Part shown: piece after piece, positions 48,001 through 54,000 of the stretch | How the letters are laid out: each line of letters starts with the position of its first letter | How positions within the stretch are numbered: position 1 is the first letter of the stretch | Source: Styela clava | Taxonomy: Eukaryota | NCBI RefSeq assembly: GCF_964204865.1 | Contig: NC_135255.1 | Coordinates: forward strand, 3,162,001-3,226,000 | DNA length: 64,000 nt | Reading direction: 5' to 3' | Position numbers: made by a program

Positions 48001-51000
48001 CATAAAGGGAAAGTTTGTGGCAACCTAAAATACGACTCACACAGACTACGATTATATTCTAACAGGCCTATTGCATCATGTAGATTTCAATAACAACAAC
48101 CATGTAGTGCATGCACAATTGGTAAAAGCAGACATTTATGGCAGCATCAGGCGGGTCATATTAAATCACCCAACGGGTCGGCTTTATCCCACTGACCATA
48201 GTTGGCCCATGTCAGGTCTAGTTTGTCATTATTCCATTATCAGCGCTTCGTTGAGTTATTTGTGAATAACTAACTACCTTGCTCTATGTCTCTGAGCAAG
48301 TGGCAAGAGTAAAGATGATTCATTTAAGTGTCTTGCTGCACAATAACAGAAATGCATTTAACTTCTCAAGCCTTTTAAATTGAAGTTTACAGCAAAGACA
48401 TTTTGAACAAAATTTGTATTATTTAGAATTCCGTTCTTAAAAATATCAAAAATGTGTTTTCCAACCTTGAAAGTCATTCCAGTCCACACGCGGAAGTAGT
48501 ATGTGTCCGGATAAATCTTCGGGCGCATGTAACTTGTTAGCATCCAGTAATGGGCTTCGTTGTAAACATTTGAAAGATTCCATCCCATATTGCTACAGAT
48601 ACTCTCGGCATTGGTGAATGTAACGTTTTGTGTTGGATACACGATGACTCGAAAGCAGTTTTGATCGAAGCTGACATCGCAATTTTCTACAAAACAAAAT
48701 TGATTGAATTTTTATTATCCAAGCGAGATACATTGCATTGGCTTTTTCCAACCGAATCACTCTCAACCCTAACCCCAACTGGATTAATCACAAATTTGGT
48801 ATTTTAAAACATGGTGGGGTGTAGTGTAACTGGAAAAGGTCCGTATCTTGTACTGTTCTATATATCTAAGTCTATGAAGTTTATATTTACTTGGAAACAG
48901 AGATTTAACGGTTGTGTCTGTCGTAAAACTATCGATATCTGTACTGGATATCTTGTCAGCTTCAATAGTAGTATGACTATGCTCAGAACCGATCGAAGAT
49001 ATTTGACCTGAAGAACAAAGTGATTTTGAAGTAATGGAGTTAGTAATTCAGATGATTTCAAAAAGAATTTCTATTTTACAAGCATCAGCGACAGTCTTCG
49101 AGACGTTTTGGGGTAAAGATGTAATTAATACCTACGCACAGTGGCGGCGCGTGGTCATTTTGACAACCGGGGCAAGCTACTGCGGGACCAAGTCACCCCC
49201 ATCTACGGGGACAGGATGAGCGCTGTAAGTTCTCCCATCATTTTATGAGTATAAAAACCATCCCATCGGTAACAACCAATCGGCAAAAGCGACAATTTTT
49301 AACGATAAGAAAGTGTCTTTAAAACCAGTCCAAGTCAAGGGATTAATAAATATAGTCATAGTTTATTTTGAAACCTCTTTCAAAAGGAAAGGCAATATTT
49401 ACCCAGATAAATACAATGACATATTAACAGAAACTTCGGGAAAGCAGACAAAACCTAAAATAAGGTTTAAAACGTTACTATGAAGAAAGGAAAGGTAATG
49501 CAAAGATAAGGACATGCGTCGCTCACTCATAGATATATATGCTGCTAGACTTCTACTGCTTGAACATATATGCAACACGCCGCGGTTTCTTGGAAGCAAA
49601 ATGCTCAATAACGCGTTGATTAAAGTCATGCATCTCAGGAATAACGTCTCTGTGAATGGATAAAACAGCCAAGGAATTTAATCTATCTTGTTTCATTGTG
49701 TTTCTGAGATACGTTTTAATACGCTTCAGCGTGCTGAATGTTCGCTCTGCGTCGGCGGAAGAAATAGGCGTCGTCAAAATGATGTCCAGAAATTTTGCAG
49801 ACGCCGCAAAGGTAGTTACTAGAGTGTTATCTATGATTGGTGTATATACATCGCAATCCATTTTCCAATTTACCCACGTTTATCATGGGGTAAAATTTGG
49901 AGACAGTAGCCAACAAATGGATGGGAAATTGACGTGCAAACTCACCATCTTCTAGCAGACGCTTTAGACCTGCCGCCTCCCTCACAGAGCGTTCGTCCCA
50001 AACCGGTGAGCTCTGAATGCCATTGAAACACTCAATGAGCTCAGACCTAATTTCGGACACGCCCTGCACCACGCGTGATTGGAAGTTCCAACGTGTTGGT
50101 GCACAAGCTGGGAGACGGCGGCTACATATCTGGCGAAGGAGGTCAGAGCGCTTCGGCGAAACGGATAGAATTGAAGAATATCCCGAAACATTTGCAAAAA
50201 ATATACGGACGAGAGGGGTATCAAGACACATATTTTTAATAACGAGGTTAAATTGGTGTGCATAACAATGTAAAAAATGCGCATAAGGAAAATCTTCTTT
50301 TATATAAACTTGACACCATGTTTCGACCCACTCATGACTGCCGCGTCGTCATAAGTTTGAGCTATCAATTTTGACTTCGCGTTGTAAAGCTGTAACACTT
50401 CTTTCAGTACAGCCGATATCCCGCAAGCCGTGCGATCAACGATTGGTACAAAGCTGTGAAATCTCTCGGTAGGTTTACCATCTTTCACAAACCGAAAAAT
50501 CACAGCCAGTTGGGAAACGCACGTGATGTCAGTTGTCTCGTCAGACTGAATCGAAAGGAACTGGCAATTCTCAATTTCCAGAGCCAAATGTTGTAAATAA
50601 ATTTTATTCATTGAGTCGAGCAAATCATTTTGGATATCCTTAGATGTCCCTTTGGCATCAAGATGATCTCTCAATACTGTATCTAGGGATGCGGTGTATT
50701 CCACCATATCCAAAAATACCCCTCTATTAGAAGAGCCAGCCCGTTCATCGTGCCCACGGAGGGACAGCTCGTGACAACCAATGAACTTCAAAACATCTAT
50801 CAATCGACCGAGAACATGGCGGTTTTTCTCGACGTTTTAGTTGTGCCGACGAATAGAAACCGCGCGTCCTTCATCCAACTGTGCTGCAATATTAACATTT
50901 CCGAATGTTCGGTATTTTACTGCATTGTCCAGATGCTCCATAGAAGATTGATGATCCCTGGCACGCTCGGAAAGATGTTTAAGATCTCTGAAACCAAATT

Positions 51001-54000
51001 TACACCAACGTGAGTCACGGGCGGTAGCAAAAAGTAGGCAATAAAAACAAAAAAGTGCATTTTTGTCCTCGCTGTAACACAACCATTCGTGTTTTTTATA
51101 CCATGTTTCTGCGCAGAATGTACGCCGACGCTTTCCTCCGTCATGGGATTGTTCCAGTGAACAATTTTTTGGTTGATAAGGCCCAAGACGTTGTACCTCT
51201 AATTTTTGTTCCAGCGGCAGCTGCGAAAACGGAGTGCGAAGTAGTGCATCAACCTTATTCATTATGAGGTCTAAGGCTAAGAAATGCGAAGCCGGAAAGA
51301 AGTGAGGAGCTCAAAAGGAATGTGGAAAATCGAAAGCAAATGGACTAAAGGTCTCTAACTGATTCAAATAGCGAAACAAGCGACAAAAACGAAGGCTATG
51401 AAGCTATCAACTCTTCAAGCAACCAACGAACGAGAAGGAATGCGTGAATATGTCAACACGTTGTCGTAAGAAACGTCGGCATTGTGTCGTCATAATTTCG
51501 GGGCTAGCCCCGATGATTTAGTAAAAGAAACAGAAAACAAACGAGACAAACGCGGCGAGTGGAAGATAAAAGAGAGAATACGATATACAATGAGCAACCG
51601 GGGCAAAATCGGCGTCGCCCCGTCGACGTTCGGCGAAGACTTTGCGAGCGAAAAATGAACCATGTCGGGAGAATATGGCTAGTGTAGACAGTCTGTGCAA
51701 CCGATATTGAGGTATTTTTCGAATATTTTTTATTATACCGAATAAACAACCGGGGCTTTGCCCCGGTTGGCACTATTGACGCGCCGCCACTGCCTACGCA
51801 CCTGCTGTTGTTCGGTACTTCTTAGGTGTTATCGACTCAAATGTAAAATACGCTGCTGATGTTGAAGATGTGCTGTTAAAGTATTTTGTTGCTTTATCAG
51901 TTTTCGTGATGTAATCGGTATGACTCCCATTATCGGTTGTGTTTGCTAACAAACCAGTGATGTCATCGTCAGTTGCTAAGGTGTAATCGATAAAGTTATC
52001 AGTATTGGATAGAGCAGAAGTTGATGCGTCGCTTGCTTCTGTTGACAAAAACTGTGATGTCGTGAACACATTTGTGACGTCATCAGTTGTGTCCACTAAT
52101 TTTGTAATGTCGGGCGAGTGCAACTCGTTGTAGTATCGAAAATAGGACGAAATGGTAACAGAATCATCCTGGTTTTCCAACAATACCGATTCCAACTTTT
52201 GCGCCAGTTTTTCTCGTAGTTCTGCAATCAAAATCATTGAGTCTTGAGGGAATGGTTAGGCTATTGATCTAACACGCCCTCGCATTGATTACGAGTTATA
52301 ATGAAATTTTCGAATGCTTAAAAGTTGGTATTTTTCCTTAAAAAATAATTAGTAGATAAAGATAAAATTGAAGTAAAATATCTCATGTTTATGCAATCTT
52401 GTGCTGCTTGCTCTCTTGATGTTACATATTGCTAGGAATATTGCCTCAGGTCAAAGTTAGTTGAATTCAGTTTATTCTTTGTTATTTAATTAAGTTTATT
52501 TCAGTCCAGTTCGTAATAAACTCATTCTCACCTTCCTCGTTTGATGCCTGTTATATAAAAGTAAAATAAGCATTAGTGTATGAAGAGCTAAAGATAGAAA
52601 AATCACGCGATAGTAACCTGCCTCACCGTGAAACTGTCTTTACCGCATGATGAACTGTCTGACCCTTTTCCTAATTGAACGTTCACAGAAATATCAACTG
52701 CAATAAATATTTACAATTTTGCTTTAGTTCGGTGAAAATTTTTTTAATGGGTTTGCCTAAGCATGTGTGCATCATGAGTCATGGAAATACGATTTGAACT
52801 CTAATCAATCTAACAATCGATTCATAGACATGTTTTAATAAATCTGTGACAGACTGAGCCGAAGCAGAAACATTCCGGTATTCTGAACCCTATGATGAGG
52901 AACAATAAGAAAACCATCACCAAATCAACAAACACAACCCAGGAATTGCAACTAAATATACTAATTATACTTCAATATTCTGTTTTCATCATATATAGAA
53001 ATGTGACAAATTGGTCGGAACCCAAATAAATATTTATATATACGTCTTCGAATCATGCCCAAAAGGTATTGTTCAATCGTTCTACTGATGAGTTTAACTA
53101 GGATATGACTACATGCTTGGCTCGCATGACAAGAAGGCCTCCGCATTTCGAATCGCTGCCATCTTGTTTTTATTTGGCCGCCATAGATCGGAGTGAATTC
53201 CTGATTTTTTTTTATTTTCAAGCCATATTTTGAAATACATCTCTTTTCTTTCCAGTGATTCATGGATATATATTTGAAGTATATTTCTTATTGTGTGTGA
53301 ACACCAGCTAACCGTCTGAATTGATTGATCATTCAGATCATTCATTGTTTTTTTGTAAACTAATTTATGTGTCTGGAGGACCCATTACAATAAAAAAAAT
53401 AGACACATACAATTAGCCTAACATATCTTCCAGGTATTCGAGATTCGATCCGGCAAAATATTCGAAAATGACAACATGCTTTGCTAAGAATCATGGTAGT
53501 GAATCCGCCGTGTTTCAATCTATGAATCAGACTTGAAAACTGGAATAACTTATTCAACCTAAAATCTGTGATTATTTACTGATTCAATTGATTTGTTCGT
53601 AAGAGCTCAATAGAACAACTATTCTAGAAGAGTTTGGTTTGTATTTCCAGATTTCAATCTTCCAAAACGTTAACTCCTGAATGATGGTATTCATATGAGC
53701 ACAAAACTTCAATATTACCTGTTACCGCACTCTTCATGCCGATAATGAGAATAAATAGTGCAGAAAACATACTTAACAAATTACACAACGGTGCCACAGA
53801 TTGCCGTACCCACCATCAGAATGAAATCTACCGGTGGTATACAGCGGTTGATAAACGCAATGTAATGTTGTTTAAATAAAATGGCATCTCAGAACAACTT
53901 TGAGTCACAAACAAACACGAAATAGATTTCAGTTCAGCGCACGCCCGTCGGGTATTTTATGAAATTATGAAAAATCGTTTTGATTAATAGGTTATAGACT

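What the first reader, a model, noticed from the sequence alone, without database searches (positions are those of the whole stretch)
49131..51802. hAT transposon inserted against a splice donor, duplicating the donor
On the minus strand the lectin exon ends CAG|GTGCGTAGG. The 8-bp TSD (TGCGTAGG) is intron positions +2 to +9, so the original donor survives. At the far end the last G of the TIR plus the second TSD copy recreates GTGCGT ahead of the original intron of about 130 nt. The transposase is co-oriented with the host, so element-initiated transcripts could splice into the lectin-domain exons, or host transcripts could terminate in or exonise the element. This is a ready-made route to a transposon-lectin chimera or to intron gain.
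Basis: partly seen in the sequence, partly recalled or inferred. Interest (0 to 1): 0.65.

Follow-up and report, generated by a model that had tools for sequence, protein, structure and literature searches.

The report
Decayed hAT transposon abutting splice donor
A broken cut-and-paste transposon sits one base inside an intron of a sea-squirt lectin-like gene and copied the splice signal when it landed, but it looks like an ordinary, tolerated insertion that only made the intron longer.

Summary
A 2654-bp hAT element (49139-51792) has perfect 14-bp terminal inverted repeats and an identical 8-bp target-site duplication (49131-49138 and 51793-51800). On the minus strand that duplication is intron positions +2 to +9, directly after an exon ending CAG at 51802. 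The last G of the element plus the second copy rebuilds GTGCGTAGG, 132 nt upstream of the old acceptor.

The host is a 7-exon, 363-codon gene with all exons open. It is collinear with three Styela clava paralogues and ends in a divergent C-type-lectin-like domain.

The functional reading is weak:
- The transposase is dead: one in-frame stop, a frameshift, a loss of about 107 codons, and a further gap of about 15 codons with a frame change.
- The frame leading into the next host exon is closed 12 codons before the copied donor.
- The copied donor matches the consensus at 4 of 9 positions, against 7 of 9 for the original.
- The intron already existed, so this is intron lengthening (132 to 2794 nt), not intron gain.

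No RNA or population data could be consulted. Verdict: an ordinary intronic transposon insertion, tolerated because the duplication left the donor intact. Interest is low.

The parts
49139..51792 (-). hAT element, 2654 bp: an internally deleted, non-autonomous copy of a ZMYM1-like family
   Evidence: Inverted repeats and target-site duplication. Pfam DUF4371 and Dimer_Tnp_hAT. G+C is 0.436 in 50001-52000, against 0.31-0.39 in the rest of the window.
51779..51792 (-). Terminal inverted repeat at the transposase-5' end; reads CAGTGGCGGCGCGT on the minus strand
   Evidence: pair I2, 14 nt, 100%.
49139..49152 (+). Terminal inverted repeat at the transposase-3' end. Its outermost base (49139, G on the minus strand) is the G of the copied GT.
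51793..51800 (-). Target-site duplication, copy 1 (TGCGTAGG on the minus strand) = positions +2 to +9 of host intron 4
49131..49138 (-). Target-site duplication, copy 2, identical to copy 1
49553..51262 (-). Transposase pseudogene. Start codon at 51262-51260. In-frame TAA at 50839-50837. Frameshift near 50312-50288. About 107 reference codons missing between 49938 and 49931. About 15 further codons missing, with a frame change, at 49837/49836. Final stop at 49555-49553.
   Evidence: The tblastn used the 697-aa relative P0006 and the Hydra protein P0010.
51748..51768 (.). Subterminal AACCGGGGC motifs as an inverted pair. Further copies at 51596-51604 and 49165-49173. Candidate transposase-binding repeats (inference).
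   Evidence: 4 matches in the window, all inside the element ends; 0 of 100 shuffles reach 4; families D2, I3, I6, I19.
51796..51804 (-). Original donor of host intron 4 (D1), CAG|GTGCGT; last exon base 51802
   Evidence: 7 of 9 matches to CAG|GTAAGT. Phase fits exon 5. Paralogue proteins run straight across this junction.
49134..49142 (-). Copied donor (D2), ACT|GTGCGT, 132 nt upstream of the exon-5 acceptor
   Evidence: 4 of 9 matches; the frame into exon 5 is open for only 12 codons upstream.
49008..49130 (-). Remainder of the original intron 4 (123 nt) with its acceptor ttcttcag
53719..53770 (-). Host exon 1: start codon and a hydrophobic N-terminus (probable signal peptide, inferred)
52627..52697 (-). 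Host exon 2
52532..52547 (-). Host exon 3 (16 nt)
   Evidence: Its 5 residues fit the paralogue sequences seen.
51802..52221 (-). Host exon 4: Ser/Thr/Asp-rich linker, the exon that abuts the element
   Evidence: 64% and 60% identity to two S. clava proteins. Also.
48891..49007 (-). Host exon 5
48466..48686 (-). Host exon 6: N-terminal half of the C-type-lectin-like domain
   Evidence: 75%, 73% and 63% identity to three S. clava proteins. Lectin_C at 15-17 bits, below the cut-off of 22.6.
47443..47637 (-). Host exon 7: C-terminal half of the domain, plus the stop codon

Best explanation
**What it is.** A defective, non-autonomous copy of a ZMYM1-like hAT DNA transposon. It inserted by cut-and-paste into the already existing intron 4 of a 7-exon gene. 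That gene encodes a probably secreted protein with a Ser/Thr-rich linker and a divergent C-type-lectin-like domain. The host is Styela clava or a close relative.

**How the insertion spared the gene.** The staggered cut fell right after the first intron base, so the 8-bp duplication equals intron +2 to +9. One copy stayed attached to the exon, which leaves the 5' splice site unchanged from -3 to +9.

**Expected outcome.** The host pre-mRNA should still be spliced from 51802 to 49007. The element would be removed as part of an intron that grew from 132 to 2794 nt. The second donor copy is a by-product of the duplication plus the terminal G of the repeat.

**Shown:** element identity, borders, broken transposase, intact host exons and matching phases.
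**Inferred:** normal splicing, neutrality of the insertion, and secretion of the host protein.
For: **Element.**
- hAT hallmarks: 14-bp perfect repeats and an 8-bp duplication.
- DUF4371 at 59.9 bits (cut-off 32.1) and Dimer_Tnp_hAT at 42 bits (cut-off 21.4).
- 90 relatives of 561-2000 aa at E <= 1e-5 among 2728 candidates. Those with names are called 'zinc finger MYM-type protein 1-like'. The best is 66% identical and 697 aa long.
- Four defects in the transposase.

**Host gene.**
- Seven exons total 1092 nt. Every exon is open in the phase handed on by the previous one.
- Each of exons 1, 2, 4, 5, 6 and 7 matches S. clava proteins P0001-P0003 by tblastn.
- Exon 4 ends at P0001 residue 183 and exon 5 starts at residue 185, so the 51802-to-49007 junction gives a collinear protein.

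**Splice sites.**
- D1 matches the consensus at 7 of 9 positions, D2 at 4 of 9.
- Reading past D1 meets TAG after two codons, so the sequence beyond D1 is intronic.

**General background.** Intronic transposons are as a rule removed with their intron (abstract of PMC10901741, seen only in the listing).
Against: - No RNA evidence of any kind was available.
- No protein identical to exon 4 or exon 6 turned up (only proteins of 255-2000 aa and 129-2000 aa were searched). Either this locus is not modelled as a protein in the sources searched, or the window comes from another Styela genome. The first case could mean the insertion disturbs expression or gene modelling.
- D2 lies at exactly the ancestral 132-nt distance from the acceptor. 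In genomes with short introns, a nearby donor can compete with a distant one (recalled knowledge, not tested here).
- Inside the element the minus strand carries three AATAAA and three ATTAAA hexamers. By crude rules it also has 19 acceptor-like and 7 donor-like sites. Premature 3' ends or partial inclusion of the element are therefore possible.
Confidence: 0.75

Rival explanations
1. **The insertion damages the gene.** The copied donor, cryptic splice sites or poly(A) signals in the 2.65-kb element capture a substantial share of host transcripts. Such transcripts keep element sequence after exon 4 and stop at the TAG two codons past the exon. The allele would then be weak or null, and the gene may be on its way to becoming a pseudogene.
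For: - D2 has the same intron side and the same 132-nt spacing as the ancestral intron.
- A stop follows exon 4 directly if D1 is skipped.
- Six poly(A)-like hexamers lie on the sense strand of the element.
- No identical annotated protein was found for exon 4 or exon 6.
Against: - All seven exons are still open, with fitting phases.
- D1 is unchanged from -3 to +9 and is the stronger site, 7 of 9 against 4 of 9.
- The missing database hit has other possible causes: a different genome, or the length limits of the searches.
Confidence: 0.15
2. **The first reader's reading.** The co-oriented element acts as a source of novelty. Either element-started transcripts splice through the copied donor into the lectin-domain exons, or the host includes part of the element as an exon. 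The result would be a transposon-lectin chimera or a new intron.
For: - Same orientation, and a GT-bearing donor copy ahead of an intact short intron and acceptor.
- A short ATG-containing open stretch of 12 codons does read in phase into exon 5.
- Host-transposase fusions are known to arise from intronic transposons by alternative splicing (passages of bioRxiv 10.1101/2020.05.07.082677).
Against: - The transposase is broken in four places, and its frame ends about 410 nt before D2.
- The in-phase frame is closed 12 codons upstream of D2.
- In the transposase-capture study, 8 of 9 examined cases used an acceptor just upstream of the transposase ORF, joining upstream host exons to the transposase. 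That is the opposite arrangement.
- A product starting in the element would lack the signal-peptide exon.
- The intron existed before the insertion, so no intron is gained.
Confidence: 0.05
3. **The host gene was already inactive.** It is an unexpressed paralogue of a small family, and the insertion is neutral for that reason rather than because the donor was preserved.
For: - At least three paralogous proteins exist in S. clava.
- None identical to this locus was found.
Against: - There are no stops or frameshifts in any of the 7 exons.
- All six GT-AG introns have fitting phases.
- Identity to the paralogues is highest in the domain exon: 73-75% for exon 6 against 60-64% for the linker exon 4. 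That pattern fits constraint on the domain.
Confidence: 0.05

Closest known systems
hAT superfamily DNA transposons, the DUF4371-bearing 'zinc finger MYM-type protein 1-like' group
   Same: - 8-bp target-site duplication, 14-bp repeats starting CAG, and length of 2.65 kb.
- DUF4371 plus the hAT C-terminal dimerisation domain.
- Subterminal short repeats.
- The defining ranges (2.5-5 kb, repeats of 10-25 bp, 8-bp duplication) come from passages of PMC3942097.
   Different: - This copy cannot encode a transposase: one stop, a frameshift, and two deletions, the second with a frame change.
- The closest intact relatives found are only 66% identical.
- Its subgroup (Ac, Buster or Tip) was not determined. 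My recollection that such elements are filed as hAT-Tip100 comes from no call.
Introner elements: transposons that create introns, with one splice site supplied by the element and the other taken from the target-site duplication
   Same: The duplication takes part in forming a splice-site sequence: here the terminal G of the repeat plus the duplicated TGCGT. The concept is from passages of PMC11282704.
   Different: - Introners land in exon sequence and become the whole new intron, in many genes at once.
- Here the element landed inside an existing intron, which keeps 123 nt of its own sequence and its own acceptor.
- Only one copy is in the window.
Transposase capture (host-transposase fusion genes formed by alternative splicing to an intronic DNA transposon)
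   Same: The first step is the same: a DNA transposon inserted into an intron of a host gene in the same orientation.
   Different: - Capture normally uses an acceptor upstream of an open transposase ORF.
Maize Ac/Ds insertions that are spliced out of host transcripts (recalled from the older literature; no paper was read for this)
   Same: A hAT-family element inside a transcription unit whose ends lie next to usable splice signals.
   Different: Those cases concern insertions in exons that are removed imperfectly through cryptic sites in the element ends. Here the native donor and acceptor are both intact.

Membership tests
hAT superfamily transposon | 8-bp target-site duplication | tested here: met
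   Identical 8-mers at 49131-49138 and 51793-51800, directly outside the repeats.
hAT superfamily transposon | Short terminal inverted repeats (10-25 bp) | tested here: met
   14 bp, 100% complementary. Only 2 matches in the window, both at the ends.
hAT superfamily transposon | Length about 2.5-5 kb | tested here: met
   2654 bp. It would be about 3.0 kb with the ~107 missing codons restored in thought.
hAT superfamily transposon | Transposase with the hAT C-terminal dimerisation domain | tested here: met
   PF05699: E 8.1e-11, 42 bits, cut-off 21.4.
hAT superfamily transposon | Open transposase gene (autonomous element) | tested here: not met
   In-frame TAA, a frameshift, a gap of ~107 codons, and a gap of ~15 codons with a frame change, all relative to 697-700-aa relatives.
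hAT subgroup (Ac / Buster / Tip) | Placement in a transposase tree and the subgroup's target-site pattern | not tested
   No reference set of classified transposases was at hand. One insertion cannot give a target-site pattern.
C-type lectin(-like) domain protein (host gene) | Pfam Lectin_C at or above the gathering score | tested here: not met
   - 17.0 bits for the exon-6 ORF.
- 15.0 bits for exon 6, 14.6 for P0002, 15.1 for P0003; nothing for P0001 or exon 7.
- The cut-off is 22.6.
C-type lectin(-like) domain protein (host gene) | C-type-lectin fold | tested here: inconclusive
   - My own model of paralogue P0002 failed (mean pLDDT 32), so no fold search was run.
- ESM Atlas, residues 205-349 of P0002: 29 of 30 feature hits fall in the Lectin_C set (score 0.94, 169 of 256 features shared).
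- Its own model aligns to Lectin_C clusters with TM 0.72-0.75 by query in 5 of the 6 rows shown.
- This is a lead at fold level for a paralogue, not for the window's own protein.
C-type lectin(-like) domain protein (host gene) | Calcium- and sugar-binding motifs (EPN/QPD and WND; motif names recalled) | tested here: inconclusive
   Read by eye only, in the exon-7 translation. Neither motif is evident. No alignment to characterised lectins was made.
Introner element | The insertion itself creates a new intron in former exon sequence | tested here: not met
   123 nt of non-element intron and the native acceptor remain. Removing the element and one duplication copy leaves a 132-nt GT..AG intron that has a stop after two codons.
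Introner element | Many similar copies forming introns in many genes | not testable with these tools
   One copy in the window. No eukaryotic genome collection was available.
Host-transposase fusion gene | Transposase domain joined in frame to host exons | tested here: not met
   The transposase frame is broken. The frame into exon 5 is open for only 12 codons before D2. RNA support could not be tested.

The most novel reading that the evidence does not exclude
The insertion may be a segregating allele in which the copied donor competes with the true donor 2.66 kb upstream. The copy sits at exactly the ancestral 132-nt distance from the acceptor, in a genome of short introns. A share of transcripts would then keep the element and stop two codons after exon 4. 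That would give a natural weak allele, or a truncated secreted product, of a lectin-like gene from an expanded family.

More broadly, elements with 8-bp duplications might be able to settle directly on 5' splice sites because the duplication rebuilds the donor.
Probability: 0.1. Interest if true: 0.4.

Novelty: new member of a known kind. Interest (0 to 1): 0.15.

Why it matters
It is a tidy textbook-style example. A transposon landed one base from an exon border without destroying the gene, because its own target-site duplication left the donor intact through position +9. It could serve as a natural test case for the choice between a distant strong donor and a nearby weak copy.

It does not open a new question. 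Intronic hAT insertions, splice sites derived from target-site duplications, and transposon-host chimeras are all established. This copy also lacks the intact transposase and open frames that a chimera would need.

Tried and rejected
1. **Other copies or an empty site inside the window.** blastn of the element (2654 nt) and of both host flanks (1739 nt and 508 nt) against the window gave only self hits, plus one 73-nt, 77% match at 28488-28559. No comparison was possible.
2. **An annotated protein from this very locus.** No identical hit for exon 4 (2 hits among 1029 candidates, 255-2000 aa only) or for exon 6 (3 hits among 6 candidates, 129-2000 aa only).
3. **Fold of the host domain.**
   - The profile of three paralogues against PDB sequences gave 8 matches at E <= 10. 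The best was 0.12 and none was a lectin.
   - AlphaFold2 on the 3-sequence alignment gave mean pLDDT 32 and pTM 0.26. I did not use it and ran no fold search.
4. **Rfam over the whole window.** 0 matches.
5. **Crude splice-site scans of the element.** The acceptor rule would pass only 2 of the 6 real host acceptors. Its 19 hits therefore say little, and I give them no weight beyond 'cryptic sites are not lacking'.
6. **Literature.** The S. clava genome paper (PMC7540406) has 0 whole-word occurrences of 'hAT' and 2 of 'lectin', both about complement genes. Searches listed no paper on this locus.
7. **A review on 5' splice-site competition** could not be located. That point stays recalled knowledge.
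8. **Reading the frame changes as transposase introns: rejected.** The tblastn pieces abut or overlap on the DNA, so they are indels or deletions.

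
Full report
**1.

Reading 48700-52300 and the minus strand shows an element with the following features.

- **Inverted repeats.** Perfect 14-bp terminal inverted repeats lie at 49139-49152 and 51779-51792 (pair I2).
- **Uniqueness.** Allowing up to 2 mismatches, the 14-mer occurs 2 times in the 64,000-base window, both at these ends. 0 of 100 shuffles reach 2.
- **Target-site duplication.** Directly outside the repeats lie identical 8-mers (TGCGTAGG on the minus strand) at 51793-51800 and 49131-49138.
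- **Size.** The element is 2654 bp.
- **Subterminal motifs.** Its ends also carry AACCGGGGC: 4 matches in the window, all inside the element ends, and 0 of 100 shuffles reach 4.
- **Composition.** G+C is 0.436 in 50001-52000, against 0.31-0.39 elsewhere.
- **Window quality.** The window has no N.

On the minus strand the upstream exon ends ...CAG at 51802 and is followed by GTGCGTAGG, so the duplication is intron +2 to +9. At the other end the last base of the repeat (G, 49139) plus the second duplication copy again spells GTGCGTAGG. This copy sits 132 nt upstream of the acceptor that places the next exon at 49007.

**2. The element is a dead hAT**

The minus-strand ORF pieces carry DUF4371 (59.9 bits, cut-off 32.1) and the hAT dimerisation domain (42 bits, cut-off 21.4). 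5 of the 8 pieces scanned had no family.

I read the element through its single in-frame TAA as X and searched with that sequence. The search found 90 proteins of 561-2000 aa at E <= 1e-5 among 2728 candidates.
- The named hits are called 'zinc finger MYM-type protein 1-like'.
- The best hits are 697 aa long and 66% identical.

An exhaustive search with the 178-aa DUF4371 piece found 4456 cluster representatives at E <= 0.001. This is a very large, ordinary family.

tblastn of a 697-aa relative and of the Hydra protein against the element shows four defects:

| Defect | Position in window | Reference residues |
|---|---|---|
| In-frame TAA stop (codon 142) | 50839-50837 | - |
| Frameshift | near 50312-50288 | about 325-332 |
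| Deletion of about 107 codons | between 49938 and 49931 | 450-556 |
| Gap of about 15 codons with a frame change | 49837/49836 | 589-603 |

The aligned pieces abut on the DNA, so these are mutations, not transposase introns. Motifs that I recall as typical of hAT catalytic cores are still readable in the fragments. That recollection comes from no call.

The hAT definers (2.5-5 kb, repeats of 10-25 bp, 8-bp duplication) are taken from passages of PMC3942097. The subgroup (Ac, Buster or Tip) was not determined.

**3. The host gene**

Exon 4, searched alone, hit two Styela clava proteins at 64% and 60% identity. Exon 6, searched alone, hit three at 75%, 73% and 63%.

tblastn of these proteins back on the window, together with the splice motifs, gives seven minus-strand exons:

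| Exon | Coordinates | Content |
|---|---|---|
| 1 | 53770-53719 | start codon, hydrophobic N-terminus |
| 2 | 52697-52627 | - |
| 3 | 52547-52532 | 16-nt exon |
| 4 | 52221-51802 | Ser/Thr/Asp-rich linker; abuts the element |
| 5 | 49007-48891 | - |
| 6 | 48686-48466 | N-terminal half of the lectin-like domain |
| 7 | 47637-47443 | C-terminal half of the domain, plus stop |

- The exon lengths sum to 1092 nt.
- Each exon is open in the phase handed on by the one before.
- All six introns are GT-AG.
- Exon 4 aligns to P0001 up to residue 183, and exon 5 aligns from residue 185. The 51802>49007 junction therefore yields a protein collinear with the paralogues.

The joined coding sequence was not assembled, translated or searched, so the whole-protein look-up remains undone.

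- Pfam Lectin_C scores are 14.6-17 bits against a cut-off of 22.6. It appeared in 3 of the 5 queries and for the exon-6 ORF.
- A PDB sequence-profile search found nothing relevant.
- My structure model of a paralogue was unusable (pLDDT 32).
- The ESM Atlas look-alikes of the paralogue's C-terminal 145 residues are C-type lectin clusters: 29 of 30 by features, and TM 0.72-0.75 by structure.

I therefore call it a divergent C-type-lectin-like domain. The exon that touches the transposon encodes the linker, not the domain.

**4. What the insertion did**

Removing the element and one duplication copy leaves a 132-nt GT..AG intron. Reading on from exon 4 meets TAG after two codons. So the intron existed before the insertion, and the insertion lengthened it to 2794 nt.

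The native donor is unchanged from -3 to +9. Measured by matches to CAG|GTAAGT:
- D1, the native donor: 7 of 9.
- D2, the copy: 4 of 9.
- The other five host donors: 7, 5, 6, 7 and 5 of 9.

Seven GT sites inside the element reach 6 of 9, so D2 is not even the best cryptic donor nearby. The frame that would read from D2 into exon 5 is open for only 12 codons (stop at 49177-49179). The transposase frame ends at 49553.

The most economical reading is a tolerated intronic insertion that is spliced out with its intron. This is the usual fate of intronic transposons (abstract of PMC10901741, seen only in the listing).

**5. What remains open**

No RNA or population data could be consulted.
- No eukaryotic genome collection was available.
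- The bacterial/archaeal genome collection was not used because it is irrelevant here.

Three features leave room for a damaging effect: D2 sits at the ancestral spacing, the sense strand of the element has six poly(A)-like hexamers, and no identical protein was found for this locus (within their length limits). I give that rival 0.15.

The transposase-capture literature (passages of bioRxiv 10.1101/2020.05.07.082677) describes the opposite topology and needs an open transposase. Introners (passages of PMC11282704) create whole new introns in exon sequence, which is not the case here.

The species is given as Styela clava or a close relative on the strength of the paralogue names only.

**6. 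Verdict**

This is a new member of a known kind, and interest is low (0.15).

Noticed in passing
window 58368-59774 (+): Two ORF pieces of a Saf4/Yju2 splicing-factor gene: PF04502 at E 1.6e-85 and 1.2e-12, covering profile positions 1-161 and 159-332. An ordinary conserved neighbour that could help to fix the species.
   Followed up: partly
window 43104-44786 (+): A long first exon with a hydrophobic N-terminus and a CAP / cysteine-rich secretory protein domain (PF00188, 27.5 bits, cut-off 21.1). It is another probably secreted protein gene, 3 kb from the lectin-like gene on the opposite strand.
   Followed up: partly
window 40065-41488 (+): Two exon-sized ORFs with EF-hand pairs (PF13499 and PF13833). 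A calmodulin-like or troponin-C-like gene.
   Followed up: partly
window 8152-8542: A tandem duplication of about 200 bp with 89% identity.
   Followed up: no
window 55551-55716 and 56874-57025: Two direct copies of a ~160-bp repeat at 77% identity. Similar short minus-strand ORFs run across both. Possibly remnants of another mobile element.
   Followed up: no
window 45313-45398: An 86-bp near-palindrome: it matches its own reverse complement at 83%.
   Followed up: no
host gene, minus strand, 53770-47443: Four of the six introns are phase 1: those after exons 1, 3, 4 and 5. Exons 4 and 5 are therefore each flanked by phase-1 introns on both sides. This arrangement is typical of shuffled extracellular modules (recalled).
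   Followed up: no
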